Positions 2,082 through 57,203 of a stretch of DNA of 64,000 nt are shown here, piece after piece. Where the stretch lies: assembly GCA_032718475.1 (NCBI GenBank), contig JAUCBJ010001883.1, positions 5,069 to 69,068 on the forward strand, in the 5' to 3' direction. The notes beneath the pieces were generated by a model, which worked only from the letters and a program-made list of their open reading frames with translations, was not told where the DNA came from and did not search any database. Both the position numbers and the translations under genes were made by a program. This stretch comes from Nemertoderma westbladi (Eukaryota > Animalia > Xenacoelomorpha). The first letter of the stretch is position 1, and each line of letters begins with the position of its first letter.

Positions 2082-2285
2082 CTATTTCCTTAGAGCCCTT
2101 ACTATGCGTTTTAGTAAGTGCTTCGGGTGGTAGGATCTTTTTCCCAAGTAGCACATTAAGTGTGGATCCTCTGGGCAAAGAAGCTCTCTTTTAATTGCGT
2201 TCATAAATTTGGAATCGGAATAATTGTCAATAGTATCACGAGCGAGGTATCCCTGGAAATCTGTGAAATCATTTGGGTTCTCATT
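2082..2285 (-). CDS. Putative terminal coding exon of a secreted peptide (neuropeptide/toxin-like) precursor
   Basis: Acceptor TTTTTTCAG ending at 2286. Phase-0 translation NENPNDFTDFQGYLARDTIDNYSDSKFMNAIKR-ELLCPEDPHLMCYL-GKR-SYHPKHLL-KR-IVRALRK*. AATAAA on the minus strand at 1988-1983. Confidence 0.65.
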   Translation of the reverse strand, partial: NENPNDFTDFQGYLARDTIDNYSDSKFMNAIKRELLCPEDPHLMCYLGKRSYHPKHLLKRIVRALRK

Positions 2286-2409
2286 CTGAAAAAAGATACA
2301 AAAAATACATTAGGTACTACAACAAAGTATTGTTGTACTACAGTAAAGAAAAGTACCGCCTTTCCAACCGTTCGGCTAGGAATTACTAGTTTTTCGCTAT
2401 GAGTATAAC

Positions 2410-2459
2410 CAAGGACTTCTAGAACATAGTATATATATACTATGTTCTAGAAGTCCTTG
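2410..2459. mobile_element. 50-bp perfect-palindrome micro-MITE, P-element-like
   Basis: CAAGG...CCTTG with 25-bp perfect arms, flanked by the 7-bp direct repeat GTATAAC (2403-2409, 2460-2466). Confidence 0.7.
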
Positions 2460-3799
2460 GTATAACACCGTCAAATAGGATTTATAAAGATAAATAGGAA
2501 TATCTGTAGCTGCACATAATTTCGCAGCACCAGGAATAGTGAAACTACAGAAAAACTAAACAAGCACAACCGGACCGACAACAGCAATACAGTAGGTACG
2601 TACACAGTGCAGTATCGGCCTACAGCCCGACTCCATAGTTACCAAAATCAAATTCCTATTAAAGTACAGCTCTGAAAATTAAATATAAATGTCATAGGTC
2701 CACTAAATAAACCAACATAAAAACTAACTACTATAAATTAAAGCAAATTTAAGTCGCCATCCATTTTCATATTGTCTATTATACTGGCTGTTCAATGTGG
2801 ATTTTTCCACCTAATGAGGTATTTCTCACGAACTTTTCTGTACGCGTTATGTATTAACGATCCGAAAAGGTCCCTTGCGATTCTTGCACCCCGGGTGTTT
2901 TTCAAATGTTCACAAATTGCCACCTTAAGGTTACCGTTCGTGCCTCATTATGCGATCCATAATCCGTCCAACATTCTCCCCTATGTAGTTTTCCCTGACG
3001 TCTACTGTATGTGCTTACTTACGTTGCAAAGTATCTCGTACACCACGTTGTGTACTGTAGGCTACAGTTCCTAACGCCATGCAGAAAACAGTAACTTTCT
3101 ATGCTTGGGAGGGAAGGGCACATGTATGTCTTTTTAGTAAAGGCTGGGCCTAACTAAATGTCTTTCACTTTCTCACCAGCGGTCGTCTCCAGTCGTATGT
3201 ATTGTATAGTCTCAGTGAACCACGTATATTGTCAAGGATACGGCTTCGTAGACATTCGTCCACATATGAAATAAGCAAAGGAACAGGGGAGGGTCTAGTA
3301 ATAATGTGTTCGTGTGTCTGGGTGTACCTGCAGGGGTGCCGGGTCATACGTAATAGGAAGTAAGATTGAGTTAGACAATGATTCTGGTACATTTTTATAT
3401 GCTGCATCCGCCAGTCGCGACGGCTAAAGCATACCATTAATATTTATGAAAATATTTACGTTTAAAAGATACTCCCTTTCAGCATTGAGAATCAAAAAGG
3501 AGTAAGTGTGTAAGATACTGCATTATTTTTACCATTCACTGAGATCAAACCAATATTGGCGGGTATTATGAAATGTGGATGGGTGTCAGTCAGTCACTAC
3601 AGTCAGGCAGCAGGGTAATGAAATTTAATTATTATCAGTTTGTGGTATGCAGTATCAATTCTCAATGAATATTTTGGTGTACTTTAAGTCATATTCACTC
3701 GTACTGTCCAGCAGTGTACCTAATACCTAATACTAATACTAGGGGAGTTATCCCTTAGCCATAACAGACGGCGAATGAGGAGAAATCATTGAGGAGAAT

Positions 3800-3920
3800 G
3801 ACGAACTGTTATTTTCCAATTGTTTTAATTTGTGGCTCTTAAATTGCGAATTAATGTACAGTACATTAATTCGCAATTTAAGAGCCACAAATTAAAACAA
3901 TCGGAAAATAACAGTTCGTC
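3800..3920. repeat. 121-bp near-perfect palindrome
   Basis: 60-bp arms centred on 3860 with one mismatch. Confidence 0.9.
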
Positions 3921-6424
3921 GGCTTGTGTTTAAGTCACGAATGGAAAAATTAAACAGCTGGGAAATAACGGTTTAGTGGGGGTTTAAATTTATTTATTAA
4001 AAAGGCTTCAGTATGAATTCTTTCAGCATGGGATCTGAAAGACGTATAAACTGCCGCCTTTAACAATCCGTCGCAATCTAGAAAATGCTCCCCTAATAAA
4101 TATTCGCCGTCTCTTATACCATAATACCGGTTGCAGGTACACCATAATTTTGCATAACGCCGCCACTAGGCCTATCCAATGCGAATCAAGCAGGCACAAA
4201 TTTGCAAGTAGGAGTAGATAAACTATTAACGCATGCATTAACATTTTCGCATGCAAACCAAGTGAATTTTTTTTAAGCACAGTAGGCTAATACAGACCCT
4301 TTTTGTAATTATAGAATTTGCTAAATGCACGTAAGTTAAGTTGGGCGCCAAGGGCAAGGCACGCCATTCCCGCAAAGTGTGCAGGAGAAGCCCGCTAAGG
4401 CGGCGCAAGACCCCCAAAGGCCACAAAATTCCATATCGGTACCGGTTCACAGTCACTATACAGTACATACTGTATGATATACACAGTAGGAATACCATAG
4501 GCCTGAATTAATATAGGCCTGGGGCAAGTTAGGATATCACTGGTAAAGCTTGTGTGACCATTTTTGCAAATTGTTCTTTTTGAATTTTTGTTGTTTATTT
4601 ATTGGTGAATGTTGTAGAACCTTAGTAGATATTTTCTAATGGTAGCTAGTGTTTTTTATTCGCTAGTATTTTTTGAAAATGTAAACAAAATTAATATACA
4701 CTGTAAACTGCTATAATATCCTCAATATGTTTTGTCATTTTATATTCTGCAACAGTTTAAACCTGAAATATCAATGTTTTCACATTTTTATATAATTTCA
4801 AAAAATACAAGGTAGTAAAAAAAACATTAGCTACCATAAAAAACATATCTACTAATGTTCTAGAACACTTACCAATAACAAAAATTAAAATTCACGTATT
4901 TTTAAAATTTACAAAATGGTTACACATATATGAAGAGACAATAACAAATACACGAATCCTGCAATATCATACTATAGAGTCTGTGAATCAAAGCATAAAT
5001 CCGACCTTCTCACCAAAACAGTAAACTCCAAGTAGGCAAACCTATTGCAGTATCGGTCTCTTATAACCGGTGAGGCAGAAAACAGTCTACGAACGGACAA
5101 ACTTCGATAAAACAAAATCCCGCGCAGCGAATCCTAAAATCGGGCTGACTCACTGACGGACTAAAGGCGCTCGTATACTTTGCCGCGGTGTGATTTATAT
5201 GATGAAAAAGACGCTAGCTACAAATATAACCAGCGGGAAAATCCGCAGTGTGAACAAATTATTTTATATATTTTGAGGTGCAAATAATTCCTAAACGCGC
5301 GTGTGTTTTAATTCATAGGTCAAAATTGATTTTTATCCTTCATATACTCTCATTTACTGGGTCCGGCGTTTATTTTACAAATATTCTAATATTTTGGTAA
5401 CTTGTAGGTCCAATACTTACAAATAATAAGGCTCCTTCCCCTTTCATGTATTTCCAGGACTCAAATTCAGGCATAGGGTTAATGCTACGCCCAGAATTCG
5501 GCAATTTAATTTACCAGGTCCCTAATACTAAGAAGAAATGTGTTAGTTTACTACTGTAGGCGTACGGTTACAAATAGCTATCCTGGCTCTTATCTGGAAT
5601 TTTAGTCACCTAGGTAGGCTGGGTAACTTCCTATCAGGACGTTGGCGGGGACACGGTAGGTGTTAGTATCCCTAAATAGCCTTAATTTATTTGTGCCTAG
5701 TTGTAAACTGCCCTACCGCCTGAACGGTATAATCTCAATTCAGGGAAAACACAGCAATCCTCTCCTGGCCTACAAGTTCCAACGCAAGCAATAAACACCG
5801 TGTACTGCCGACAAGCCACCAACGCACCTATACCTGACAATGAGTTAGGCGTACAGTTTTGCTGCACCCTACCAATGTACATGCCGGGTAATGGTGTGCC
5901 TGTGTCCTATCTGCGTACGGGTATCTCTGTCTAACTTTCCTTTTCTCCCCGTAGGAATATGAAGGGGTTCTGCGGGTTTTCCAAGAATTGGGACAATACA
6001 GTTCTTAATTTAAATTTTGGCGTACAGTGTGTCGCTACTCCTACCGTCGATCTTAGGTCTTACACTTAGGTAGCGAAGCATCGAACACTGTCTAACCTTC
6101 AGGCGATGGGCGAATAACTCGAATAGATATTGTGGGCGGTCTCCTGTTCATATTCCCCGATGTTCCCGTTCACTGCTGCAGCCCGATGTCTAGCCGGCCA
6201 TCCTGTTCTTTAGGGGCGTTCACCGTGGTGAAACATAGTAAAACAGATAGGAAAAAGGCAGATATAACAAGTATTTTTAACTTTTATTACAAAAGGATAT
6301 ACATAAACGTAACAAGAAACTAATAGATAACTAATAAAGATAATCTAAAGCACGAATGATTGAGATAACTAATGATAGATAGAAGTATACGATTGAGATT
6401 GATAACTAATGATCGAAATCGCAC

Positions 6425-6571
6425 CTTTTATAGCAAATTTGTCCTGCAATCAATCGAGAAAATTCTCGATTGTTCTATGAGTTCTAATAGGTTTTTAAAG
6501 ATAACTATTGGTCCAGCGAATATATAACTTGCACGACATTGGTTATAATCTAATAACTACAGTCCCATTGG
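6425..6571 (-). promoter_or_regulatory. LTR U3 Pol II promoter: three CCAAT boxes and a TATA box
   Basis: Minus-strand CCAAT at 6571-6567, 6542-6538 and 6511-6507 (~30-bp spacing), then TATAAAAG at 6432-6425. Confidence 0.7.
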
Positions 6572-6650
6572 TTAATCTAGGTACAGACAAATGCAATTTA
6601 AATTGTAGCGGTCAATTTAAATGAGTTGAAATTCTGTACAAAAAATAATT

Positions 6651-6724
6651 CGCACCTACAAGGATTCGAACTCAATACCTACTACATATAATTTCCAACG
6701 CTCTACCGACTGAGCTGCTGAACC
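6651..6724 (-). ncRNA. tRNA-derived Pol III-type cassette in LTR U3 (not a functional tRNA)
   Basis: D-arm/A-box GCTC-AGTCGGTA-GAGC, B-box GAGTTCGAATCC, T6 run at 6645-6640. Acceptor and T stems do not pair. Confidence 0.65.
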
Positions 6725-7701
6725 ACTTGAATAATCATCGTACAAATAGATATAGTAAATACAAATGAGGACTCAATGTAATCTTTTAGCAAAGTTAATT
6801 CGAATAAAATAAAATTTTGAAAATCCACGGCATTTATGAGAATATAATTCTATACCGCTCCATGAAAACAGGATATTATCGTGCATAAAATATACGGTTT
6901 TCACCAATACTAAATCAAATTATAGAATACTTAGGACGTACTTACATATTTACAAATTAAATCTCAACAATAATACCTTTACATAATAATTCGATACAAA
7001 ATAATTACAAATTCAAACTTTACGTATTTAAGGCTTTATTAAGTAAGTACAATATAAATCTAAATTAAATTCACCAAAATAAATCTATTGCATCTCAAAT
7101 ATTGCATAAATTCAAACAATCACAAATACTAATACTACTTAAATATAAAACAAATTGCATAAGTTCGGAATAATTTCAAATAATCACAAGAAAGGCTCAC
7201 AAGTCTTCCGTCTGCTCTTGCCTTCTATTTACTGCGAATACAAGTACTGCTTCTTTATAAAATATAAATTGCATAATATTCGAAACAATAAATTGCGTAA
7301 GTTTGGAATGACTACAAATATAGCACTTTTTAAATATAAATCTTTCTAAATTGCATAAGTTTAGAATAATACTGCATAAATTTAGAACAATATAAACTCC
7401 TTTTACATCTCAAATATGAAATATAAATCTTTCAAATATAAATCTTTCAAATATAAGTTCCTTCTAAATATAAAACTTTCTAAATTTCAAATTGGAACAA
7501 TACAAATACATAAATTTAGAACAATATAAATTGCATAAACTTAGAATAATATAAATTGCATAAACTTAGAGCAATACAAATTTTAAACAATACAAATTAC
7601 CTAAACAATTCAATTTACATAAACAATACATAAAACAAACATAAAATAAACAATTCACAAGAAAGGCTCACGAGTCTTCCGTCCACTCCTTCCTTCCCGC
7701 T

Positions 7702-10700
7702 TTAACGCTTAGCGGATCGAGCCCTGCCGTGTCCTCGAAAACTGCGTATCGGCGATTTAGCTCGTGATATGGGACTTGTGGGGCGAGCCACTGGTTTACT
7801 TTGGACGTTGAGAGACGGTACGACCGTTTCCTCACATATTCGTCTCTTAGTCATCCCAAATCCTCGTCCAATCCCTCGTGACCGATCTGTTGTATCTACC
7901 GCTGGTAAAACGTCTGGGAACGCACGGAAAGCGGACGACGCAGACCCAATAGAAGCTTGCGCCCCCTTTTGATCAGCTGGTATATGTCCCGATCCTCCTT
8001 GCAGTTCTCTGGGAAGCGAAACCGTATCCCGAGTAATTCGAATAGTCGGTTCGTATCCCCTTCGTTCTTCAACGTTGATAGTTTTCTTTAACTGTTGGCC
8101 CACTTTCTGGACCCGTATGATCCTACCCTGTCCGTCCTCCCGAGGGTGACGTGCAGACGGCGCGACCGGTGTAGCTGGTATGTTGGTCGCCTCTAGGACC
8201 TCCTCTTCCTCGAATACGCTCGCTCGTATACGTTTATGGTAGAACGCGGCTCGGTACGCCCATGCGACGGTTAACCAAGCTCCCTTGTTCCGCTTTTCCG
8301 TTCGGAACTGATCAAATTCACCATAGGTGATACGATTGACTACTTTCTGGAAGTTCCATGTATTCTTATTGTCAGGGTGTATCTGTAACAAATATTCGCG
8401 CACAACTCGGAATCCGCTATCGTGAGGCAAAATATCAACTACCTCGATGAGTTTGTCATATTGCGGCATAGCAGAGATATATCCTTCCGACATCATAGTT
8501 TGAGGATTTACCGCCCAAAATCCAAGATGCGCTCTCATCGGGAACCGTCGGCTTCTTTGCGCTGCTACATGTTCGTCAGCCAAATCTTCCCACTCATCAA
8601 ATAGTTTTCGCACGAGTTTTACAGATTCGTGTTTGTAAGGTATGTCTCTTAGTTGGCATTCAGATGCTCGATGTCCCTTTATATTGCAGTAGGTACATTG
8701 AGCCATAAATCTCCAGCAAGTATAAAATGTATGGGACCCTTGATCTCCACACCATCCACAGATTAGTTGAGTTGTAGTAATGTGCTTTCCACTGCACTTT
8801 GTCGAATGATGTCCAGCGACGCCATATTTACCACACATCGTATTAGCAGGGTACCACACTCGCTCATATATAAGATCGCCAATGGGTCGAGCGCTTCCTC
8901 CCACACTATAATCATAATCGTCTGGATCGATAGGTTGGTATGTTTCAGAAGGTTGTATGCAAACTACAGCATCTGTTGCTTCTAATTGTCGAATCTCCGT
9001 CTGAGATTTCTTCGGGAGGTTCCTTTCAATCTCAAGAAGTTCCTCTAAAGGATCATCGATGGCTGTCCTTACTTCGAAATCATCACCTAAGTGACCGATA
9101 GGCGCACGCGTCTGCCGTGATTCGTCCGTAAGCTCCACGATACGTTCTCCTTCATAGGGTAACAATATAAACATAGATGGTCTTTCGATAAGAGATCCCG
9201 CACAGCGAAGATACACGTCTCGAAATATACTGAATCCTGCTCGAGTGAAGGCATTACACTGAGCGTCGGAATTATAGAAGGGTTCGAGAAACCGTCTAAA
9301 CACATCGGTATGAATTCTCCCTTCCGCGTGGAATGTATGATCTTCTCCGAGGCAAAGTGGATATCTTTTAAGAGTCCGAGACACAATGTCGGCGACTAAG
9401 CAAACATTCACTGATGACTCTATCGCTAAATAATATTGTAGTAACGCTCTTGGAGGTGAAGTAATAGCCCAATATACGCATCCTCTCCATTTGAGCTGTG
9501 ATTCAAACTCATTTATATCTGGAGTATCACCTTCTCCATACGTTTCGATATACTTTGTTCTTTTACTTTCCTTATAATCCCAATTAAACATCAAGTAGGA
9601 AATATATCCAGTTCCGGTTTTCTGAGTATCATACTCACGGAAGTATCCTTGTTCTATAGACCACAGTATAAGAGGTCGAGTGTCGATGTAAGGTGTCGGT
9701 AATCGGTCGTCACTGTCCGACATGCCGGCGAAGTCACTAATTAAGTCCTCTCTTACTCCTGATCCAATCTTTACAACAGTTTTATCTAAAATCATATTTC
9801 TCACCGTCTTTGGTAACATTCTAGCATCGATATTGCAAGCCTGGTCCATTTTCTTTACTATATTTGTGATGAACTGGTGCTGCTTTGTAGTTCCTGGAGG
9901 TATCGGCATTCGCTTGTCGCTCCTTTGTCTACTGAAAACGGGCAAAACTCCGTCTGCCGCTCTAATTTGTATAGTCTTGGAGGTTAGACTCTGCTGATGG
10001 CTGCCGCCCTCGTTATCATAAAACATGTAACCGTTTTCCTGAAACGATCTAAACGTCCTATTCCATTTGTCCAATAATTCTTCCGAAGGTTGCCAAATCT
10101 TCTCTATATCTTTCTCGTCCTCGAAACGAATGACTTTACCTTGCCAGTCCGCAGCGATATCTGTATCCGACTCAAAGGTTCCTGTTCCAATCCATAAGCG
10201 AATTGTTTTGGTTAAATATCCTTTCAGGTTACTCGGAGCTATATCAGCGCCAGCTCTATCCAGTTCCCTAAAGTCTTGAATATGAGTCGGAACATTATGC
10301 ACGACCTTTTGCGTAATATGTCTACGTAAATCATATATCTTAACCATATCGCTTAGAACAACTGCAGGAAGAAACTCTAAGTTCGAAATGATTTCCGGAT
10401 GATCCACAATAGGTATTTCATACGTTGTATCTTGTCGAACTGGTATACTAATAGGGAAATTGAGTGTCGTACTCAATGGTTTCGTAGTTGAAGTACTATA
10501 CGGTTGCATTTCTCTTGTCCTTTCCGGGGATGCAATCTGTAGTCTCTGAATAACGTTTTGAGCAAAGTTTATACTCTCGAAAACTTCCGGTGTCATCTCC
10601 TTAGCTGAAGTTTGATCGTGTGACGTCCAATGGTAAGGTAGGCTCGCGAGTCTTCCGCCCCATTCTTCCATCTCACCTTTCTCGAAAGCCTTGTAGGCTC

Positions 10701-11427
10701 TGTATAGGCTAAGAGCTTCTTTCTTTTCGCGGGTTGACTGAGTCGCCTCGTCCAGCGTAAGTTCGAATACATCGGGTTCAACAACCTTAGGTGGGTAAAC
10801 GACAATTTCTCCCGCCTTTGGTCCAGTCATGGCGAATGAATGATATGGATTCGATAAAGGATACCCTCCTTCCTGGTAGCGTAGTTGTTGATGGTTCGAA
10901 CACCTCGCCAATATCGGTTCGGGATTTTCCTTATTCAAACGCATCGGAATCGCATTTCGTTGTTCGCGCATACAAGATCCGCATTGATAATAAAGTTTAT
11001 AAACTGAAAATGCTTCCTTAGTTTCTCTATCGTCCCCTCGAGTTCGTCTGTAAAGAAGCATTCCATCAAATTCATCTCGTACCGCAGGCATAGTTTCGTG
11101 CGCCTTCAGGTATTGCATGGTATGATACAAACGACTAATTTCAGTATCGGGGTCTTCGCTAATGTCTCCCGTATCACACAAAGCGTCGTACGGGTAAAGT
11201 TCATTGAAGGTTTTGCGCAAACTTTCGATTCTTTCATTTAACGCGTTTTGCCTTCTCTTTATTACATTCGAGTCATATTTCGTTCTCACGAGTTTCGCTG
11301 TACTTTCTGATAAATCCTTTATTCCAAATATAGTGTAATCCTTAGCTCCAAATCGTTCGAATGGCGCTGCTTCTTCCTCTTGGATATCATATCCCCATCT
11401 CGGCTCTCCTTGTATCCCCTTCGCCAT
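7702..11427 (-). CDS. BEL accessory ORF3 (1241 aa): DEDDy 3'-5' exonuclease (WRN/Mut-7/RNase D-like) plus CCHC zinc knuckles
   Basis: ExoI MFYDNEG (D471, E473); ExoII LPKTVRNMILDKTVVKIGSGVREDL (D561); YIDT; ExoIII-like W...LLQYYLAIE (Y666, E670). Knuckles CGWCGDQGSHTFYTC and CTYCNIKGHRASEC. No signal peptide or TM segment seen. Confidence 0.8.
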   Translation of the reverse strand: MAKGIQGEPRWGYDIQEEEAAPFERFGAKDYTIFGIKDLSESTAKLVRTKYDSNVIKRRQNALNERIESLRKTFNELYPYDALCDTGDISEDPDTEISRLYHTMQYLKAHETMPAVRDEFDGMLLYRRTRGDDRETKEAFSVYKLYYQCGSCMREQRNAIPMRLNKENPEPILARCSNHQQLRYQEGGYPLSNPYHSFAMTGPKAGEIVVYPPKVVEPDVFELTLDEATQSTREKKEALSLYRAYKAFEKGEMEEWGGRLASLPYHWTSHDQTSAKEMTPEVFESINFAQNVIQRLQIASPERTREMQPYSTSTTKPLSTTLNFPISIPVRQDTTYEIPIVDHPEIISNLEFLPAVVLSDMVKIYDLRRHITQKVVHNVPTHIQDFRELDRAGADIAPSNLKGYLTKTIRLWIGTGTFESDTDIAADWQGKVIRFEDEKDIEKIWQPSEELLDKWNRTFRSFQENGYMFYDNEGGSHQQSLTSKTIQIRAADGVLPVFSRQRSDKRMPIPPGTTKQHQFITNIVKKMDQACNIDARMLPKTVRNMILDKTVVKIGSGVREDLISDFAGMSDSDDRLPTPYIDTRPLILWSIEQGYFREYDTQKTGTGYISYLMFNWDYKESKRTKYIETYGEGDTPDINEFESQLKWRGCVYWAITSPPRALLQYYLAIESSVNVCLVADIVSRTLKRYPLCLGEDHTFHAEGRIHTDVFRRFLEPFYNSDAQCNAFTRAGFSIFRDVYLRCAGSLIERPSMFILLPYEGERIVELTDESRQTRAPIGHLGDDFEVRTAIDDPLEELLEIERNLPKKSQTEIRQLEATDAVVCIQPSETYQPIDPDDYDYSVGGSARPIGDLIYERVWYPANTMCGKYGVAGHHSTKCSGKHITTTQLICGWCGDQGSHTFYTCWRFMAQCTYCNIKGHRASECQLRDIPYKHESVKLVRKLFDEWEDLADEHVAAQRSRRFPMRAHLGFWAVNPQTMMSEGYISAMPQYDKLIEVVDILPHDSGFRVVREYLLQIHPDNKNTWNFQKVVNRITYGEFDQFRTEKRNKGAWLTVAWAYRAAFYHKRIRASVFEEEEVLEATNIPATPVAPSARHPREDGQGRIIRVQKVGQQLKKTINVEERRGYEPTIRITRDTVSLPRELQGGSGHIPADQKGAQASIGSASSAFRAFPDVLPAVDTTDRSRGIGRGFGMTKRRICEETVVPSLNVQSKPVARPTSPISRAKSPIRSFRGHGRARSAKR

Positions 11428-11454
11428 TATTAGAGGTATGGTTACATAATCATA

Positions 11455-11491
11455 CTACTAGAGGGAATACAACAGAGTTTATTGTTAGTTG
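11455..11491 (-). promoter_or_regulatory. Putative splice acceptor for ORF3
   Basis: Minus strand CAACTAACAATAAACTCTGTTGTATTCCCTCTAG-TAG: CTAAC branch point, pyrimidine tract and tandem AG about 30 nt before the ORF3 ATG. Confidence 0.55.
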
Positions 11492-12085
11492 TGAGGAGAT
11501 GCGAGAGTTTTCGTCTGCCCTTTTGGCTCGACAACGCTCTAACCTCCTACCCATAGCCTAAGATCTAAGGTTTCTTTAGTGACACACTGTCTTATCTAAA
11601 ATTTTTGCCGAAATAAAAACGAATTTGGGCTAAACTGGCTGTGAGTCTAAAATACTCACTTTTTGATCCCAAACTATTATCAGAAAATAAGCAATCAAGA
11701 GTTAGTAATAAATATAGGGAAGTCTATTATTCGACGTAACTTATTGAAACAAGACCGTGTAAAATTTAATTAAATTTTTAAGAAAGGCTCGCGAGTCTTC
11801 CTTTCTTGTTTCTCTAATTTTAAGTTCCACCCGACTGTACCCTGAAATCTATTCACTGGAGAAAATTTTAAAAATTTTTCAAATCCAAATGGATTGTCTA
11901 AAATTTCGAAAATGTCTCAATATTGTGAGTTCCAAGTAGAATTCCATTTCTTATACCTACAAATCCCGCTCCTATGTGACACATAAGGGTACTACCCTCA
12001 ATGTTCACATATAAAGACAATGGAATTCTACCGCTGTCTTTACTACAGTGTACAGGTATGTGGAAATCTATTTGTAAACTCCTTA

Positions 12086-39501: not shown

Positions 39502-39654
39502 GTAGCTTAATAATAATATATTTTCCTCTAGAGATTATTATTAAACAACTCTTGTCCCAAATTTACTTATTTCTGAATTTAAGATTGGTGACCCAGACTT
39601 TGAACTACAAGTTTTAAGATGGAACAATCCGACATCCTAGCCCTTGCTCACGCA

Positions 39655-44102: not shown

Positions 44103-44295
44103 TATAATATATAGCACATTAATAAATTCAACCATTGGCAATTTATCTAGTGTAGAAAGGTGGATAGTTTTCACCGTATGCGTATATCATACTGCTATAC
44201 TTTGCTGTAATCATTATATACCGGTAACTGGTATTTGAGATTAAAATTTAAGATTTTAGAAATTTAAGAATTTAATTAAGATTTGTGATTGAAAT

Positions 44296-45126: not shown

Positions 45127-45379
45127 TTATCAGGCTTACGGCCACTCAGTCTTCCACAGCCAACAGCGGCAATGAGTAGAAACACCACCTAGTTGAACGG
45201 TCGGGATCTCAGGTCAACCGGGATCCCATCACATAATGGATTGGCATAAACTTGTTGGGGAAGACTTCTGAACTCAACAGTTGTTTACTAGAGAGCAGAC
45301 CGTGTGGTTCTAAACCAAAACAATAATAATGACATTAAAGACTCATCACATCCCTCACTTCTCATAACAACTTAACTTA

Positions 45380-45545
45380 ATAATAATAACTTAATGTTTT
45401 ACACTGACTACTGACTGGAAAGTCTAACAGATAGTGTTCCTCAACCTCAACTCTCCCACATGTACAACAATCATATTCAAGATCCCCGTAGATAAGTCTC
45501 ATATGTGCTAGATTAGCTTGACCTATCCGAAGTCCAAGAATGAAC
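45380..45545 (-). mobile_element. I/Jockey-group LINE C-terminal zinc-finger remnant
   Basis: LRIGQANLAH...CCTCG..VEEHYLL resembles the RLRIGH...C..C...H.L..C end of I-group ORF2. Confidence 0.45.
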
Positions 45546-45753
45546 GTCACTTGAATGCGACTGGGGTCCAGAGTGATTGTGGTACAGTATACCGAGCCGG
45601 TGTCACAGTAGAAAAGCCAGTAGGTACTGAGGTGCGGTTCCACATTAGTGTGGTAGTCCACATTAGTCCTATAATGATATGTATAGTAGTAAGCGAGGAT
45701 CATGAGCGAATTCGAGTGAAATCAGCAGTTATTAAGTGAACAGCAGTACATAT

Positions 45754-46305
45754 GGACAGTGTTATGCAAAAGGGTATTATCCCACATTTTGTCGAAATTG
45801 AGTTTTTGGTATCATTTGATAGAGGAAAGTGTAATCTACATAATTGATGAGATCCTATTGTCCAATAATACGAAGAAATGCCTTAAAAGTACAAGAAAGG
45901 TAAGCCACAGTCCGGATTTGTGATTAGTCAACTAATATTATTAATACAATACTATTAATACAAACAAATAATATTGCAAAAAAAATTTAATCCACATACT
46001 AATTGTTTGGCTAGACATCTTTTGACATCTTTTTGCAAGTATGACACCTTTTGACAATTTAACGTTTTGCCAAATATGAAGTTTTCCAAAAGTGTTAAGC
46101 CACATTTTGATCAATATTTCGGAGAAAATGCTATATTCTAGCACACTAACTTGAAAAATACTGTAATTTCCATAAATGTTTTCTTATAAAAACACAACAG
46201 TATCTGAATAATACAACAACGATCACACAGGATGTTAAAAACGTTGACATCGATTATCTCAAATTTAACTTTTGTGGCTTAACACCCTTTTGCATAACAC
46301 CGTCC
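45754..46305. mobile_element. MITE with ~25-bp TIRs and AT flanks (ISL2EU-like)
   Basis: AT|GGACAGTGTTATGCAAAAGGG at the left and CCCTTTTGCATAACACCGTCC|AT at the right. Confidence 0.7.
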
Positions 46306-46644
46306 ATTATGTGGTCGCAGTCTCTCTCTCTAGATCTCTCTATCAAAAAAATGTAGTGGAAAGTGTACTTTTTAGCAGATGAGACCTGGAAACTGAAGAA
46401 AACATTTGAATAACAAATTGATGATTATTACAAAAGACTGCTAGTGGCACCACACCAAATCTAACCTAGAGACTACAAATGCCCAAGTTTATCGTAAAAT
46501 AACACAGTTATCAATTACTTTCCATGAATCCAGAATACGATTCACTGTACACTGCAATAAAAAAGTATATATAAAGATACAACTATAAGTATTTCCATGC
46601 TACACTGCAACTGCGTTATATATATTATATGTATTAAGAATATT

Positions 46645-46915
46645 GTGCCGGGTTATCAACAAAATTGAACAACCACCACTCCCACTCACCCATGACATTT
46701 TCTAAATCATCCCCATCTTCAATGCCAGTGTCCTTTAATAATGGTCTCAAGAAAGTCATGGGCTAATTCCCCAGACGTATTCACTCCATAAGGCTGCCAG
46801 GGCACAAGACTATGCACTGGCTGGTCTTCACGGTGAAAGCAATAATGTCCTGCAAAGCAGGGGCCGTTCGGTTCAAGTGTCAAGCTGAGGGAGACTAATG
46901 AAACAGCTCCAAGTT
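46645..46915 (-). mobile_element. Diverged RTE 3' fragment
   Basis: Reverse-complement similarity to 31750-31950 and 44900-45080. Confidence 0.7.
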
Positions 46916-47689
46916 TGCATAGGTGAAATATTTACATTATGTATGTGTCCATCTGTGTGTACGTAGCTAAGATGGTTTTGGGTTGTTTGAAGTTGTAGAA
47001 TATACAGTAGGGATTATTATAATATATGGATTAGTAATTATTATAATTATCGCATAACATCCAGGAGTGATTTTAACATGAATGAGAATTCGAAGAAGGA
47101 CTAGAGCTCCTTAATTATGCGACCATAATAAACTAGTTTCCTTACGCAAGATAACAGGCCACAGGTGTTCTGGAAAACAGTAATTGTAAATATAATTAGA
47201 TGTCAGTAGGATCCCCATTTGTTTATTTGAGCCACACTACCCAGTATTTGAGCCAGTTCTTCAATACCGACCTTAATCAATCAATCACACAAGCTCTCTG
47301 CAAACACTAAATATATAATTTTAGTTAGATTCGCTAAATAGTTTTGTAACATGATTCAGTCTGTGATATTATTAATTAACATGCTGAATAAATTTGGCAA
47401 CAAATTGATAGTTAGTATTTTATCACGTTGAAAATAAGGAAAATTTTTAGGCTGACTAGAAAATATGAATAGTGGCCCGTGAATTATTCCCCACATTAAC
47501 ATATTGGGTTATTGGCAGATTAAATGTTATTTAAAATACACTGCTGAAACAACAAGCTGGCTGGGATGTGTACTTCATAAAATAGCTTCAAAATTACGAT
47601 GGGACAAGTTATTGTATATCTTTGTTAGGAGACACTTCAAGTCCACTTGGAAATATATAATAAACATCCCCACCGTCCCCAGTGTACCC

Positions 47690-47933
47690 CACATAACAAA
47701 CTTCGTCGGCGAGAATGCTTCACCCATTAGTAATCTTCGCCCAGAGCAATCTTCGCCCTCAAAATGAGTGAACAACCTCGTTTGCTGTTTTGGTTAGAAA
47801 AATTCGTTTCTGTAACCTATCATGTCTGTTACCTGCTCCTTTCCCGCGAAGGTTGGACGCGGGCGAAGATTTCCCGCGGGCGGAGATTTTCTGCGGGCGA
47901 ATGTTGGACACGGGCGAAGATTGCACCCAAATC
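47690..47933. mobile_element. Second copy of the Mutator-like MITE, inverted
   Basis: GGGCGAAGATTGCACCCAA end and one reverse unit related to the 68-bp satellite. Confidence 0.6.
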
Positions 47934-49649
47934 AAGGGACACGCCAATAATGCTGCAAAGTAATACCCCATACATTCCAATATTTTAGCGTGCTTAATTA
48001 TTTTTTATTGAGCACATCTATATATATATGTAAGAAAAGCATCGCAAAAAAAAGCAAAGAAAAGCAAAGCAGTAGTTGTAATGCGACATTATGTTTCCAC
48101 GCCATGGAACGTTACACCACGCAGTGGACTGCAGGACCAGCGCACACCGTTATCATTATTATATACTTCTCTATTTATTTCAAATATGAAATATAGAATA
48201 ACATAACAAATATTAGCCATAAACCGTTAACAGACTTCGTAACTAATTAAAAGTTAGCAACATCTTAATTTCGCAAAGTTTTATTCGTAAAGGAACAACT
48301 CCTATTAGTTGCTATGTTGGCATTTTACATTAAACATACGGCTAGTTGTCTTGTGTGTAAAAAAAACCGTTAACCGGTATGACTCAGTCTTAAAATCAAA
48401 ATCAAAATTGTTATTTTGTGTTTTTGCATCGGTGATTTTTGCTTTTTTTTAACGGATACGTTAGGTTTTTCCTAATTTGTGATCAGTTCTTGAGGTTTTA
48501 CTTACCGCAAACTGTTACTGATGTATCAATTTCAGCAAGTTGATTGATGAAGAGTGGTACTGCCCTAATGGCACCGGTTATTATTTAATAAATCTAAATC
48601 CAATCCAAAGAGAGTAGGCCGGCCTAACGGTAGACATAAACACTCAACCTGTTTTGGACCTGTTTGCGCGACCTACAACTCGTTCGCGGGTTGGGGGTAA
48701 GGATATAAAAAAGGTTTCTGTAATAAACAGGGAAGTATTACAGCACTTCCTTGGTCTTTGTTTTGTATTCACTCAGACTCAAGGCAGGGGTTTGTTTAGC
48801 TGGAGCCCTAAAACTGACATATGACCATATTGTTATCTCGTTCTAGCTAAGAACGAGAGAAAGCCGGCCCAATATTAGATTTATAACAACAACATTTCCA
48901 TTGGGTAAGAAAGTGGAGAGAGGAGAGCCAGCCCGACTCTCAATTTTTTAGTTTATATTATGCGATCAATTTTCACTCATCTCGTCATGAACCCAACAAG
49001 TATGTAACCTTTTGTTAAATTTGTTGGCTATGCGTTTGCGGTTGTTTGGGCGGAGTGTGGTAGGCCTACACTTTTCACACTTAAATATTTTGGTTGTGAA
49101 ATGTTACAGGGAACAGCGATCAGAGATATTTCATTTATGTTTTATTATGAGAGGAAGAAAAACATAGAACGTTATTTACTATATACAGTATGTAACGAAA
49201 TAATTGTTTTCGGGTTTAACTTGGAAGCCTCCCAAAATAGTTGATATACAATTCTATTTATAATTATTTCCATGGTCATGGTCATTCACCCGTCTTTAGA
49301 TAGAAATTTGTTTGCATGAAAGACAGTTTAGTTTAGTTTTTACTGATTATTATCTCTTATCTGACTCGGGTAATAATAAAGGATAGGATAAATGGAAGCA
49401 AAGTGTGACAGTAACAAATATTTCCCTGACAACCTAGCATGTCTTAAGTATATGATATCTCAAAGGAGGAAGTTTGGATTCACTGCATAAATGCAGTTCA
49501 CCAAACTTCCCCCGAATGCACACTGTAACTTCCCCCTTCCCCCAAATATCCACTGTTGAACTAATTTGAAGCGATATAATAAGTACAAAATTGTGTGAGT
49601 TTTTAATTGTGTGGTCCATTTGTTATTTAATCTTTCTTTATTGTTTAAA

Positions 49650-50102
49650 AGACTTGATTATTACTGTAATAAGAAAAAAAGCTACTGGCTACTGACTACT
49701 GGCTACTGACTACTGGCTACTGACTACTTGATGAAATTTTGCATAAACCTTGAAAATAGATTTCTATGGGTACTTGTGAAATCGCGGTTTAAATTGAAAC
49801 ATCTCAATTAGTTTTATTTCGAAAAATAGCCCAAAACACGAAAACTGCAATAGGGGCAATGATAAAAACACCAGCTGGCACTCATGAAAAATGTATAGAG
49901 ATGGCCTGGTAATGCATTCAATAGGAAGGGCAACTAACACAGAAGTACTAACACAGAAGTACTTTCTGTGCCAAGTATTATCACTCTACTCTACAACCCA
50001 GACAGTAAGCTAACATGGTTTAGCTGGCTATTACAGTCTCAGCTGAATAACTCTTCCCAATGCATCCTTGCTATGCTAATTAATTGGCGTGCAAGCTAAA
50101 TG
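49650..50102 (+). mobile_element. Interspersed repeat with (CTGGCTACTGACTA)n tract, Helentron/HINE-like; inverted partner at 51846-53700
   Basis: About 450 bp of reverse-complement similarity to 51846-52274 plus 53649-53700. Confidence 0.65.
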
Positions 50103-50669
50103 TGTTGTCTACTACTGTATTGATTGTACTGTGCTCTCTAGCTCTCATCTAATTATTGTTTTATTTTAAAATCTTTGTGCCAACATTAATACTGTGGAGG
50201 CTGTATGCTTATAAAGCTGAATGTTTACTCAGCCTCATAATGATTCTCCATAGGGCTAACATTATTGTTTGAAATATAAAAATCTGTTATACAATAATAA
50301 TATAATTGTTATATTTAATTAAGGCAATGATTTTTTATGTCCTTTTATTTGACTTTTTTTGTCCTTTTTTTTACGAATTATGCATAATGACTTTTGTTGT
50401 CCTTTTAATGACTTTTATTGTCCTTTTAATGACTTTTTATGTATGTATTTCTTCAAACTGTCAGACTGCTGATTTCTGGACTGTCAGACAGTTGATTTCA
50501 CTATGCCTGTGCCAAAACATTCCATGATTTATAGACTATGAGATAGATTTCCATATGCGCCTGTGGTAAAAAGACTCTATATTTAATAGTTTGTGGTTGT
50601 TGTCGAAAATCGAATACCACATGACGTAGCAAAACACTCATTTTATAGCCAAAAACAATTACCAATTGA

Positions 50670-51303
50670 TGGAAAGGAGCAGGTTAAGGCCGATTTTTCT
50701 AACCAAAACAATAAACAGTCACTTTACCAAATCAGGGAAAGGAGCAGGTTACAGAGACGGGATTTTCTAACCAAAACAATAAACGATCACTTAACTAATT
50801 GAGGGAAAGGAACAGGTTACAGAGGCGGGATTTTCTAACCAAAACAATAAACGATCACTTAACTTATTGAGGGAAAGGAGCAGGTTACAGAGGCGGGATT
50901 TTCTAACCAAAACAATAAACGATCATTTAACTAATTGAGGGAAAGGGACAGGTTACAGAGGCGGAATTTTCTAACCAAAACAATAAACGATCACTTAACT
51001 AATTGAGGGAAAGGAGCAGGTTACAGAGGCGGGCCTTTCTAACCAAAACAATAAACGGTCACTTAACTAATTGAGGGAAAGGAGCAGGTTACAGAGACGG
51101 GATTTTCTAACCAAAACAATAAACGATCATTTAACTAATTCAGGGAAAGGAGCAGGTTACAGAGGCGGGATTTTCTAACCAAAACAATAAACGATCATTT
51201 AACTAATTGAGGGAAAGGGGCAGGTTACAGAGGCGGGATTTTCTAACCAAAACAATAAACGATCATTTAACTAATTGAGGGAAAGGAGCAGGTTACAGAG
51301 ACG
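50670..51303. repeat. 68-bp tandem array, ~9 units
   Basis: Unit GAGGGAAAGGAGCAGGTTACAGAGGCGGGATTTTCTAACCAAAACAATAAACGATCACTTAACTAATT; period 68 (50801, 50869). Confidence 0.93.
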
Positions 51304-52274
51304 ATAAAACTAATACAGTAATAGGCCTAAATTATGTGAAAGGTATATCCACATTTTCCACAATCCTGCAATCCAGTTTTGCCTATCAATTATTTAAAAT
51401 TTATTAGCACAACCGGTAGGCCTACCATTACCGTATTTAAATGGTAGGCTACACAGTAGGCCTATAGCAGTACCGGTGCCGGTACCGGTACTAAAATACA
51501 GAAATACCTGCTTTATACCTACATCTATACATACAATACAGCAAAATAGTGCTATATATACTAATACCGGTACTGATAGCCTGAGAGAACAGCAGTAGAG
51601 AAACCGGTAGCATGAACCTAACATTAGACTTTTGGAGGACATAAAAAATAAAAAAAAAGGACAAAAAAAGGATTTAAACGGACAATAAAAACTATTGCGT
51701 TTAATTAATATCGCGGTTTACATTGAACAGTGTAAATTGTTAATCGCGGTTTACATTGAAACATCTCAACTTGTTTTATTTATTACATAAATAAGAAAGA
51801 ATTTGTCTTATCACTGTGTAGCCAACACACTGTATAACTAACAGTCATTTAGCTTGCACGCCAATTAATTAACATGGCAAGGATTCATTGTGAAGAGTTA
51901 TTCAGCTGAGACCGTAATAGCCAGCTAAACCAGTTATGGTTTTGTTTGATTACTGTCTGGGTTGTAGAGTAGAGTGATAATAAAACTTGGCAGAGAAAGT
52001 ACTTCTTTGTTAGTTGCCCTTCCTATTGAATGCATTACCAGGCCATCTCTATATATTTTTCATGAGTGCCAAGCTGGTGTTCTATCATTGCGCCTATGGC
52101 AATTATCGTGTTTTGGGGCTATTTTTCGAAATAAAACAAGTTGAGATGTTTCAATTTAAACCGCGATTTTACAAGTACCCTTAGAAATCCATTTTCATGG
52201 TCCATGCAAAATTTCATCAAAATCGTTAGAGCCGTTTTTGCTCTACGTCAGTAGCCAGTAGTCAGTAGCCAGTA

Positions 52275-53648
52275 CTACTAGGATCGGCATGCTGCATTGC
52301 AGCTGCATTTTTAAGAATGCTGTGTTAATAATTCACTCCATGAGGCTGCCAAAGTACAAGATTTTGCACTGGCTGGTCCTCACGGCGAAAGTAATATTCT
52401 GCAAAGCGGAGGCGATTTTGTTCTAGTGTCAAGCTTGGGGGAACCAATGAGACACCTCCAATGTTATATAGTGTCTGGTTGGAGAAGTGTGCATTGTACT
52501 TGACACAATGAACCCGGCGTAGCATTCTTGTAAATGTGCCATCCAGAGATTTGGTGTCCTCAGCAGATAGAGCTCAGAATGGACTCCCATAGAGCAGTAC
52601 TGGAACTACTGCTGCTCTAAATAATCGGACCTTAAGTTTCCGATTAATTCTCGGTGACTTCCAAATCCTGGAAAGCCTATTCAAGGCTGCCCATGCCTTT
52701 CCCTTACGTATTCGAAGGTCCTCACCTGACTTCCGGATCCATGATCCCAGGTAACAGAAGTCGTCCACATGCTCAAGCATACCATCCTTTGAGCTTATGC
52801 TCATCCGATCAGAGACTTGCTGAGAACTTTCAAAGTTAACTGTCAAAATTTTGGTCTTTCTGGAGTTAATAAAAAGACCAACACTAGAAGCAGCATGTTC
52901 TAATGAGCTGAGGGGCCGTTGGGCTCCCTCTAGTGATTCTGAGAGTACTCCTAAGTCATCAGCAAAGTCTAGATCAGTTAGGTACTTGGCAGGATTTCCT
53001 CGACTTCTGGAGCCAGTAGGTGGAGTTATCATCACCCCATTATCATTATGATGATCTAAGGACATGCGTAGAACATAGACAACAACAATTATGAACAAGA
53101 ATGGAGCAAGTGTGTCTTCCTGGAGGACACCCCATAACACTTCAAATGGTTCTGGGTCACCGTCAACAGTAGACACAAATGTTGTCGAACCATCGTATAC
53201 TGATCTGATTGCTGCAAAAATTTCATCAGGAATCCCATATATAATGAAAGTATGCTGAACATACGTGAGCGAGAGACTGAATCAAAGGCCTTGAAGAAGT
53301 CAACAAAGATAACAGCCAGATGCCTGTCTTTCTTTTTTGATAACTCTTCAATTATCCTTCTAAGTGCCAAAATGGGCTCCATGGTCCCACGACCTTTACG
53401 GAACCCATTCTGATTTCCACGGAGCAGTCTCTCAATGGGATCCCTGATGCGATTTAATAGAATTCTATTGAATAGCTTTGCAGCAATCGAGATCAATGAG
53501 ATTCCCCGAAAAGAACCATAGAGTGTTAGGTTGCCCTTCTTGGGAACTGGCACCAATTTATTTGTTTTCATTTCTTGTGGGACTCTTGTTGTTCGGTACA
53601 TGTCTACTATGGTGGGATAGATGAGCTTTAAACACTCAGGTATTTTAA
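52275..53648 (-). mobile_element. 5'-truncated RTE-type LINE (RT domain), frameshifted
   Basis: PVPKKG..FRGISL..QNGFRKGR..FVDFFKAFDSV..GVLQ.DTLAP..DLDFADD..YLGS; TAG tail; probable TSD AGTAGCCAGTA inside a microsatellite. Confidence 0.92.
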
Positions 53649-56600
53649 AGTAGCCAGTAGCCAGTAGTCGGTAGCTTTTTTTCTTACAGTAATCAAGTCT
53701 AACGACTTGCTAATTAAATTAATTATTTTTATTTTTATTTTTTCACTAAAATCGCTCTAACTTCGGTTCTGATGGTCCAAATTCAATAAAATTGGTATAT
53801 TCTTTGCCGTGATTTTTTTTCCATCTTTTGAGAGGGGGTCATTTTTGTCCCCAACAAAAAATAAAAAAAAGGGTCAAAATGACGCGATATTTTTCGACCC
53901 TTAAAATTCGTTTTTTTAATTATAAATGTTAAGAAAAAAGATAGCGGAGTTAATTTGCTACATTTTACAGGTAGTTTTGGCGCAAAAAGATAAATTATAA
54001 TAGAGTAGCGAATTATTAAGAAAAACAATTTTTCGTCCCTTTTTTATAAATATTATATTTCACATGATCGTCTGCCGCTCCAGTTGTATAATAGCTTCGG
54101 CTTCGGCGCTGTAATTAACGCTGTTAGATAGATAATTTAACGCACTATAGGTCTGTATAAACAAATCTCCCGTAAGTTAAGTAGTTTTCGAGCCGGACGA
54201 GTTCCCGCGCAGTGAGTTTGAACCGCGAAATTTTAATATTGGCCCTCATTTTTTTATATCGTTTGCGCAGCAAAACCAATAGAATATTTGGATTCACCGT
54301 ATCGATATTAACCGTATAAAATGTACCTTAACCTTCTAAGCTTAAAAATAAAAAAGTTATTAATTATAAACTTTTTATTATTTTCTGGCCCTTTTTGGAC
54401 CCTTTTGCCGACACAAGCCGACACAAGGTTAAACACTAAAACCTAGTCCTTCTCACAGAACCATTTCTCTCAGCTTTGGTGTAAATTAATTGATTAATTT
54501 ATTATTTTTTTATTTTTTTTCTGCCTCAGGTAAAGTCCACACTATCAATTGCGAAGGTCAACAACGACAACCCAAAATTCTGAGTAAAGTCTTTACAAAT
54601 ATACTAAATGATTGACACCGCCCCCCCATTCCCCAAGGTTTTAATCTCTCTAATTGAAGCAATTTTAAAGAATTCTAATTACATTGTAATTCCATTTAAG
54701 CTATTCGATTTTATAGAATTTTATTAAATAACTCTATATCTTAAATTTACATTGCTATCATTTTAAGTAATTTCATTTTAATGCATTTGATTTTATTATT
54801 TGTATTTATTCTACAAACGTACACAATGGTAATAAATGCACCAGATATCATTCAGCTTAACTTGAGAACTGAGACAAATTCAACATTAACTTCAAGTAGC
54901 TCCTACAGCCAAATAAATATAGAAACCCAATTAAAACTACTGCAGGTTCGAATGTAATTGCGGTTACGTTTGATACCCATTATCATTAACGATGTTACAT
55001 TCGATCATGATAACGTTCGGTCTATCAACCATTTTACAAATTAATACTACTTGCTGTTTACATGCTAAATGTTGTCAAATTTATAATGTCTATCATTAGA
55101 AAATTTGGCGCAAGCAAATTTATGTAAGTTATACCAAATTTCGAACCGTGTACCGCAATGTGACCATAGAATACGGTACAGTCATACTGAAAGAATGCTG
55201 CTACTTTATTTCAAGCCGTGATATATAACACCCCATAGCATATCATTTAGATTACTTTATTCCACGGCTTATTTCATGCCAACATGTATATAATTAAAGG
55301 TGATAATCATTCATCACAATCTCCCCCATTTTATCTCACATCATTTATTTCCGAGATTTCCGAGACTAATAATAATTAACAAGGCAATAAATTAGTCAGA
55401 GATCCTATGATGTTAATTTTCTTTTGAACATTGAAGTGAGCCGTTTATAATTTAACCCCCAGAGATGCGTCAGCTTTGTTCGTCATTTTTCTGTATCCTT
55501 CTAGGTTATCCTTTTACCTCTATAACTACTTAATCTTCATTATAATCCTTACGCCAATTAATTACTAAATGTGCCACGTTCGTGGATGCTGATCTATATT
55601 TTTGTCAACATTTGTGTTCGTGGAGGTAGTCGACCTAAATGGATGGCAGATCAAATTAACGTGGTGTCAGATATCATTAATCATATAAGTCGTCAGCGCA
55701 TTATAATCTTTATACCCAATATAGATTAATAAACAATAAAAGAAAAAATCAACTTAGTAGAATAACACGGTTTGTGGCAGGTCACTCACTGGTACAAATC
55801 ACCTTAATCACACGGTGGTGCTATATTTATCGTTATGACACAATTAGAACACAAACTCAATACAGTACCCCATAGAGTCGACCTTCAACATCAATAAATA
55901 GTAATTATAAAATATTATTGTTTTAGTAAACAAACCCATCACTACTGCCGGTATCCGTGGTTACTGTAGTAACTTCCACTTTTATTTTCCATAAATCCTG
56001 AGATCTTTGGAAATAAAGTAATGAGATAAAATCATACTCCAAAAACTCTCGAAATATAATAAAACCTGTGAAAAATCTTTAAAAACCCATTAAAAGTATT
56101 AAATTCTTATCATACATTCATCAACAACGCTACTCTAGAAATCGTTTGCATGACTACTACAGTACTACTAAACTGTAACATCAGTGAAAGACTAAATAAT
56201 CAAGTCGTAAAATACGTATAGTCATTCTGATCATGTCGGTCTTTTATAAACTAGAAGTTTATTCGTGGGAGAAGAGATTCAGATCGGATCTGTATATCAG
56301 ATAGAGTAAACTGAATTTTTGTTTACCTGTTGGTTTGCTGTTTACTTGTGTGAGGTTTACAGAGTGTGGACGCCCAATATAGTTGTGTGAGCAGACTATA
56401 AATATGTTTTGGAAGACTATAAAGTTGTTTGAGCGGAATATGAAGTTGTTTTAGAGAACTGTAAAGATGTAAGGGCAGTTTAATTTTTGTTGGTGGATTA
56501 CAATTGTACGTCGCGTAGTGGTGCCAATTTTAGGACGATAGGAGAATTGTGTAATAAATATAATATCGCTGACTTACAACTAAATGTGTAAAAAGTATAA

Positions 56601-56744
56601 ATTATGTTCCGATTAAGAAGACCAATGAATGGAAAGTCATGAAAACAGATCAACTCATTTCATGTAATGAAACAACTCCATCCAATCCTCACGATTTCTG
56701 TACTTTGTGTTCACGTTGTGTACTTCGTTTCACTGTTATTCGGA

Positions 56745-57100
56745 GCTGGGCAACAATGCAATACCTCCTTAATCCACCATGCCTATTACGTAGCTAATCA
56801 CATATTTACAAATGTTCCAAAATATGGTGTATTTATTAAATAGAATTAAATAGCCTCGCGCAAATACAAAAAACCATGCAACTTTAGAACGCTCATATCT
56901 CATATCGATTAAATTCAGATTGTGATACATATTTGGAATCATTGAATAGTCACTTTTCTATCAGTACCAATCACTATAAGGTTGAAGAATAGTGCGATGC
57001 CGACGGAGACACGCTCTTTTCAAACGCTTTTAGCTAAAGAATGAAAGCTAAAATAAAAATTCTGGCTCACCCAGCAAGGAGGAGGGAGGTGAAATTATCA
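56745..57100 (+). mobile_element. Diverged partial copy of the 938-1809 MITE
   Basis: Colinear similarity to 1364-1710. Confidence 0.75.
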
Positions 57101-57137
57101 ATGCTTCATATAAAATCTGAAAAGTAAATAAACTTAC

Positions 57138-57203
57138 CAGCGCTGATACAATGTCAATGAGAACAAACATTGACAATATTAAAATCATCTTCACAGCCGT
57201 CAT
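57138..57203 (-). CDS. Putative first coding exon encoding a signal peptide
   Basis: ATG at 57203; MTAVKMILILSMFVLIDIVSAL followed by a consensus donor CTG|GTAAGT in phase 0, matching the phase-0 exon at 2285. Confidence 0.6.

What the first reader, a model, noticed from the sequence alone, without database searches (positions are those of the whole stretch)
2082..57203. Hidden host gene: putative cyclic amidated peptide precursor split by a ~55-kb TE-filled intron
Seen: a minus-strand exon at 57203-57138 encodes a typical signal peptide and ends in a consensus phase-0 donor. A second minus-strand exon at 2285-2082 has a strong acceptor, is in phase 0 and is followed by AATAAA. Joined they give an 89-aa prepropeptide: signal, acidic spacer, KR, ELLCPEDPHLMCYL, GKR, SYHPKHLL, KR. 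Known: KR/GKR flanks signal convertase cleavage and amidation. The predicted product is ELLCPEDPHLMCYL-amide with a C-x7-C disulfide. I do not recognise it as a described neuropeptide family. Joining the two exons is inference, and intermediate exons may exist. Neither exon is in the ORF track.
Basis: partly seen in the sequence, partly recalled or inferred. Interest (0 to 1): 0.75.

Follow-up and report, generated by a model that had tools for sequence, protein, structure and literature searches.

The report
Unnamed ring-shaped neuropeptide gene, long intron
Two small coding pieces 55 kb apart, with mostly jumping-gene DNA between them, likely form one animal gene for a secreted precursor predicted to release a 14-residue, disulfide-closed, amidated signalling peptide that matched nothing in the databases and papers searched here, but no transcript or relative was available to prove it.

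Summary
Exon 2 (2285-2082, minus strand) starts at the best-scoring of 3682 minus-strand AG sites and carries the window's only KR...C...C...GKR motif; AATAAA lies 94 nt past the stop. Exon 1 (57203-57138) is the best signal-peptide-plus-donor candidate on either strand, in matching phase 0. In 1439 simulated 64-kb strands the Cys motif never followed a good acceptor. About 62% of the 54,852-nt gap is retroelement or satellite DNA, and no convincing middle exon was seen. Best reading: an ordinary-type neuropeptide precursor (89 aa) yielding ELLCPEDPHLMCYL-amide with one disulfide. The splice itself is unproven: no RNA run was listed, no genome is held, and no homologue was found. The host is unidentified (a marine invertebrate, perhaps an echinoderm, is a guess). 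Nearest leads are starfish Arnp24 (almost the same layout; sequence not seen) and brittle-star CCHamide-like 1 (same Cys spacing, different layout and ring content). It fails the motif tests for vasopressin/oxytocin, somatostatin, MCH and CCHamide-like families. The long intron is ordinary. Verdict: probable orphan neuropeptide gene, moderately interesting.

The parts
57138..57203 (-). Coding exon 1: 22 aa, signal peptide (basic K5, hydrophobic core, V-S-A fitting the -3,-1 rule, so cleavage probably after A21; judged by eye, SignalP not available)
   Evidence: 9-residue mean hydropathy 3.17, top candidate on both strands
57132..57137 (-). Splice donor GTAAGT, phase 0
   Evidence: rank 8 of 3506
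2286..57137 (-). Inferred intron, 54,852 nt, about 62% named retroelements and satellites
   Evidence: junction not shown by reads
4927..23290 (-). BEL/Pao LTR retroelement inside the intron, LTRs about 99% identical, 5-bp target duplication ACACA
34327..39501 (-). Ty3/gypsy-type LTR retroelement inside the intron, 186-bp LTRs 99.5% identical, target duplication GTAGC
2286..2310 (-). Polypyrimidine tract and splice acceptor (TTTTTTCAG)
   Evidence: rank 1 of 3682
2193..2285 (-). Exon 2, spacer of 31 aa with 6 acidic and 2 basic residues
2187..2192 (-). KR, predicted convertase site
2145..2186 (-). Predicted mature peptide ELLCPEDPHLMCYL (C-x7-C); monoisotopic 1671.75 Da if amidated and disulfide-bonded
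2136..2144 (-). GKR, predicted amidation and cleavage signal
2085..2135 (-). 17-aa basic tail: SYHPKHLL, KR, IVRALRK; amphipathic (hydrophobic moment up to 1.03, the highest in the exon), helix in a low-confidence model
2082..2084 (-). Stop codon TAG
1983..1988 (-). AATAAA, first candidate polyadenylation signal

Best explanation
This is likely one spliced animal gene for an 89-residue neuropeptide or peptide-hormone precursor: exon 1 would send it into the secretory pathway, and convertases would cut at KR and GKR to release a predicted amidated, disulfide-closed 14-mer that probably acts on a G-protein-coupled receptor. Shown in the sequence: both exons, their splice signals and phases, the cleavage and amidation motifs, the Cys pair, and the elements that fill the gap. 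Inferred: that the two exons are joined, that the gene is expressed in neurons or endocrine cells, the processing (PC1/3 or PC2, carboxypeptidase, PAM; established pathway, own knowledge), the disulfide, and the receptor class. The N-terminal Glu may cyclise. The intron is long because two young LTR elements (23.5 kb together) and older fragments landed in it; it needs no special mechanism.
For: Top-ranked acceptor and top-ranked signal exon, same strand, right order, both phase 0. The only Cys-pair amidation motif among 14 loose KR..GKR matches in six frames. 0 of 1439 null strands had motif plus acceptor. Exon 2 has no signal or usable start of its own: its first in-frame Met is residue 28 and the alternative frame gives 27 aa with no processing sites. 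Among the 30 best acceptors in the interval it has the longest phase-0 frame (67 aa; next 66 aa inside an RTE fragment) and is the only one with precursor features. GC 40% against 25% and 32% in its flanks. Such genes are often missed: only 20 of 44 sea cucumber precursors were annotated in the genome (PMC6586643, section 51 read). A catalogued precursor of nearly the same layout exists (Arnp24, PMC4772807, passages).
Against: No transcript or junction read was seen. No relative was found, so conservation of the Cys pair and GKR is untested. The ESM Atlas recognition score is 1874, below the 2300 that most known-family proteins reach; the tool says this does not show whether a gene is real. 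Signal-like exons arise by chance in 78 of 1439 strands (5%), so exon 1 alone is weaker than exon 2. The splice matrices are generic approximations, not trained on this organism. The true first exon could lie beyond the window end at 64000.
Confidence: 0.72

Rival explanations
1. Exon 2 is a real precursor exon, but its partner is not exon 1 alone: there are small middle exons, or the true signal exon lies outside the window. The mature peptide would be the same.
For: The junction is only inferred. A few acceptors in the interval have in-phase donors (27555 with a phase-0 donor at score 4.1; 34368 inside a gypsy LTR at 5.1). The window ends 6.8 kb upstream of the ATG.
Against: Those candidates encode nothing precursor-like and one lies in a young LTR. 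Exon 1 is the only candidate passing the strict signal-exon test on either strand and its phase fits.
Confidence: 0.13
2. The product is a secreted defence, venom or antimicrobial peptide from a gland or epithelium rather than a neural signal; the cationic amphipathic tail, if left uncut at its internal KR, could be the active part.
For: The last 11 residues have a hydrophobic moment of 1.03 and the 17-aa tail holds 6 K/R; helix 54-66 in the model. Lack of homologues fits a fast-evolving product.
Against: The tail is interrupted by a KR site, lacks an amidation Gly, and is short. The Cys peptide is acidic and small. No second copy or paralogue lies in the window. The model is low-confidence (mean pLDDT 60.6).
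Confidence: 0.08
3. Chance pattern or dead gene: the two pieces are not expressed.
Against: Several independent features coincide and the frame is intact.
Confidence: 0.07

Closest known systems
Starfish Arnp24 (Asterias rubens, GenBank KT601741; PMC4772807, passages read)
   Same: 83 aa against 89 aa; signal, spacer, dibasic sites at 60/61 and 76/77 against 54/55 and 71/72; one peptide of 14 residues with C-terminal Gly and two Cys against 15 with Gly; short tail. Also an orphan.
   Different: Tail 6 aa against 17 aa. Reported as not found outside starfish (PMC5627052, passage); the host of this window is unknown.
Brittle-star CCHamide-like 1 (Arnp25-like) precursors (PMC5627052 supplements)
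   Same: Single cyclic amidated peptide; three residues before the first Cys; C-x7-C in 3 of 3 species shown; aromatic then hydrophobic residue after the second Cys (FL, FV, FI against YL); GKR.
   Different: There the peptide follows the signal directly and a long tail comes after; it ends in HP-amide; the ring ends in PKF and is basic or neutral, here it is acidic (PEDPHLM).
Brittle-star CCHamide-like 2 (same source)
   Same: Cys then DP early in the ring (CSDP, CNDP, CADP against CPEDP); amidated.
   Different: C-x5-C, GAAF-amide ending, peptide directly after the signal.
Somatostatin / allatostatin-C / MCH-type precursors (PMC4772807 and PMC5627052, passages)
   Same: Signal, spacer, dibasic site, one disulfide-closed peptide in the C-terminal part of a short precursor (starfish MCH precursor 88 aa).
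   Different: No F in a CxxxFxxxxxxC ring, no WK, no Met/Ile after the first Cys and no basic residue penultimate to the second; mostly non-amidated; here 17 residues follow.
Jellyfish cyclic FRamides, CXXXMCWFR(X)amide (PMC6909153, passages)
   Same: Cyclic, amidated, Met-Cys-aromatic at the ring end.
   Different: C-x4-C, multiple copies per precursor, acidic or small residues rather than KR before the peptide, no FR here.

Membership tests
Neuropeptide / peptide-hormone precursor (general kind) | N-terminal signal peptide | tested here: met
   Hydropathy scan; heuristic, and depends on the inferred splice
Neuropeptide / peptide-hormone precursor (general kind) | Short peptide bounded by dibasic sites, with C-terminal Gly | tested here: met
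Neuropeptide / peptide-hormone precursor (general kind) | Peptide conserved in relatives more than the spacer | tested here: inconclusive
   No relative found
Neuropeptide / peptide-hormone precursor (general kind) | Expressed and processed in neurons or endocrine cells | not testable with these tools
   No reads available to lay; no peptidomics
Starfish Arnp24 | Layout: about 85 aa, one two-Cys amidated peptide of about 14 aa near the C-terminus | tested here: met
Starfish Arnp24 | Sequence similarity of the mature peptide | not testable with these tools
   Sequence only in a figure or supplement that I could not open; not in the compendium searched
Echinoderm CCHamide-like 1 (Np25) | Peptide directly after the signal peptide | tested here: not met
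   A spacer of about 32 aa intervenes (family text)
Echinoderm CCHamide-like 1 (Np25) | C-x7-C then aromatic-hydrophobic (brittle stars) | tested here: met
   starfish Arn25 has only four residues between the Cys
Echinoderm CCHamide-like 1 (Np25) | PKF in the ring and HP-amide end | tested here: not met
Somatostatin / allatostatin-C | CxxxFxxxxxxC or WK motif, peptide at the very C-terminus | tested here: not met
MCH | Met/Ile after the first Cys and a basic residue penultimate to the second Cys | tested here: not met
Vasopressin / oxytocin | C-x4-C, PxG-amide, neurophysin domain | tested here: not met
   no Pfam match
Jellyfish cyclic FRamide | CXXXMCWFR-amide in several copies | tested here: not met

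The most novel reading that the evidence does not exclude
The founding member of an undescribed family of cyclic amidated neuropeptides (C-x7-C-Y-L-amide), and a ready ligand candidate for one of the orphan receptors of the somatostatin/MCH or bombesin/endothelin/CCHamide groups in an invertebrate lineage whose peptide set is not catalogued.
Probability: 0.35. Interest if true: 0.55.

Novelty: new member of a known kind. Interest (0 to 1): 0.36.

Why it matters
Short neuropeptide genes with long introns are routinely missed by annotation (20 of 44 annotated in one sea cucumber genome, PMC6586643). If real, this gives a defined, easily synthesised 14-mer (predicted 1671.75 Da) to test on orphan receptors; a starfish alone has eleven bombesin/endothelin/CCHamide-related receptor candidates, of which one was singled out for bombesin (PMC12002301, passages). 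The value is incremental: lineage-restricted orphan precursors of this type are listed by the dozen in survey papers (20 in the crinoid paper), and the long intron is explained by element insertions.

Tried and rejected
No whole genome is held. Homologues of exon 2: none by word index; HMMER over 1.84 billion representatives gave 2 hits, both tandem-repeat proteins with no real alignment to the motif, rejected; no usable Atlas hit; no Pfam family; one PDB hit at E 0.88, rejected; metagenome pattern scan 0 matches; 338 pattern matches, 0 confirmed. These collections are mostly microbial or annotation-based, so the blanks say little. AlphaFold2 on the single sequence: mean pLDDT 60.6, not used for fold search. 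Rfam: nothing. Literature motif searches: searches returned only unrelated words in the 30 listed of 1980 and 143 papers. Short motifs of the peptide were absent from, or hit only unrelated proteins in, the held supplements of PMC9793003, PMC5627052, PMC6188537, PMC6586643 and PMC8557429 (in 48 only 12 passages of 55 counted occurrences were shown). None of the 20 crinoid PCNPs resembles it. Exact-motif searches cannot find a diverged orthologue. Host identity: retroelement proteins have no close named relative (best 58% and 55%, unnamed; named hits at 49% or less from a comb jelly, a fish, crustaceans, a pseudoscorpion and a sea anemone). TAGGCCTA, TACCGGTA and G runs are strongly over-represented; linking this to echinoderms is my recall, with 6, 1 and 1 occurrences in a 72,927-character crinoid file and no paper found, so the host stays unknown. 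A second Atlas query on the extra BEL/Pao ORF did not complete. The resemblance of the 48-bp satellite translation to the peptide was set aside as chance (opposite strand, a stop in nearly every unit), without a statistical test.
Full report
Observation. Both exons are in the sequence as described. Exon 1 runs from ATG at 57203 to 57138 on the minus strand, gives 22 residues with a basic start, a hydrophobic core and a V-S-A end, and is followed by GTAAGT in phase 0. Exon 2 starts at 2285 after a T-rich tract and CAG and gives 67 residues to TAG: a 31-residue spacer with 6 acidic residues, KR, ELLCPEDPHLMCYLG, KR, SYHPKHLL, KR, IVRALRK. AATAAA follows 94 nt after the stop.

More than chance. 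With generic splice matrices (approximate textbook frequencies, my own), the exon 2 acceptor ranks first of 3682 minus-strand AG sites and the exon 1 donor eighth of 3506 GT sites; exon 1 is the best ATG-hydrophobic-donor candidate on either strand. Of 14 loose KR...G-KR matches in six frames, only this one encloses a Cys pair; 6% of 200 simulated windows had such a motif. In 1439 simulated single strands trained on the non-element DNA, none had the motif behind a good acceptor, 78 had a signal-like exon, and one had any amidation motif with acceptor together with a signal exon. The criteria were chosen after seeing the candidate, so I read this as strong but not exact.

The gap. It is 54,852 nt. 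It holds a BEL/Pao element at 4927-23290 with LTRs 99% alike, a Ty3/gypsy element at 34327-39501, a second gypsy fragment near 40358-42900, RTE-type LINE fragments, a 48-bp and a 68-bp satellite; together 62%. The two complete LTR elements have target duplications and near-identical LTRs, so about 23.5 kb of the intron is recent. I inspected stop-to-stop frames of 65 aa or more outside the large elements by eye (not scanned against Pfam below 120 aa) and the 30 best acceptors and saw no other host gene and no convincing middle exon. Very small exons cannot be excluded. A possible short 5' UTR intron (donor 57458, acceptor 57389) is untested.

Outside evidence. None was obtained. No genome is held. 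No relative of exon 2 came from the word-index search, the HMMER search of 1.84 billion representatives (two repeat artefacts), the Atlas, Pfam, PDB or two metagenome scans. For a short precursor in an unannotated animal this is expected: even the window's retroelement proteins have no relative above 58% identity. The host could not be named. The retroelement relatives that carry names are mostly marine animals, and the octamer bias reminds me of echinoderms, which is recall and was only weakly checked.

How it most likely works. The gene would be spliced into one message, the 89-residue product would enter the secretory pathway, convertases would cut at the KR sites, carboxypeptidase and PAM would turn the Gly into an amide, and the two Cys would close a nine-residue ring (pathway from established knowledge). 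The 14-mer (1671.75 Da predicted) would act on a peptide GPCR. I put 0.72 on this as drawn, 0.13 on the same peptide with a different upstream exon structure, 0.08 on a defence or gland product (the tail is cationic and amphipathic), and 0.07 on a chance or dead pattern.

Comparison with known families. It works like the single-copy cyclic neuropeptides but fails the motif tests for vasopressin/oxytocin, somatostatin/allatostatin-C, MCH and jellyfish FRamides. Brittle-star CCHamide-like 1 shares C-x7-C and an aromatic-hydrophobic pair after the ring, but sits directly behind the signal, ends in HP-amide and has a different ring. Starfish Arnp24 has nearly the same layout; its sequence is in a figure and supplement that I could not see, so this may be a catalogued orphan. 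This unseen supplement bears directly on the novelty claim. Exact short motifs were not found in the held supplements of five survey papers, which cover crinoids, brittle stars, a sea cucumber, xenacoelomorphs and a large bilaterian compendium; tunicate, ctenophore, sea urchin, starfish and sponge lists were not searched at sequence level.

Papers and what I saw: PMC9793003 passages, section 36, part 2 of supplement 2, supplement searches; PMC5627052 passages and supplement passages; PMC4772807 passages only; PMC6586643 passages, section 51, supplement search; PMC6188537 and its preprint 10.1101/265579 passages, supplement search for the former; PMC8557429 passages and supplement searches; PMC6909153, PMC3890597 and PMC12002301 passages only.

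Verdict. A probable real, unannotated neuropeptide precursor gene of a known kind, with a peptide I could not assign. The long intron is ordinary. Interest 0.36; up to about 0.55 if it proves to be a conserved, undescribed family.

Noticed in passing
window 7702-11454 (-): The BEL/Pao element carries an extra 1250-aa open frame downstream of pol with no Pfam match and no PDB match below E 0.74. By eye it has C-terminal CCHC-like zinc knuckles and a stretch that recalls a 3'-5' exonuclease (recall, untested).
   Followed up: partly
window 4927-6854 and 21719-23290: The BEL/Pao LTRs appear to end in TA...TA rather than the usual TG...CA, no TGG-type primer site follows the 5' LTR, and the 3' LTR holds an insertion of about 350 bp at 6175-6526.
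   Followed up: partly
window 23441-27168: 48-bp satellite, about 78 copies, with long open frames on both strands (up to 519 aa on minus). One plus-strand frame reads ICPDNPSYMF per unit, loosely like the peptide's LCPEDPHLMC, but with a stop in nearly every unit.
   Followed up: partly
window 935-1812 and 56746-57111: Copies of one non-coding repeat family lie just downstream of both exons in the same orientation (71% identical); the one at 935-1812 is a pair of inverted arms with G-run ends, like a MITE.
   Followed up: no
whole window, non-element DNA: Palindromes TAGGCCTA and TACCGGTA (10 sites each in 33 kb, under 1 expected) and long G runs are strongly over-represented.
   Followed up: partly
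window 50664-51300 and 30800-30928: 68-bp satellite of about 9 copies with a related two-copy stretch 20 kb away.
   Followed up: no
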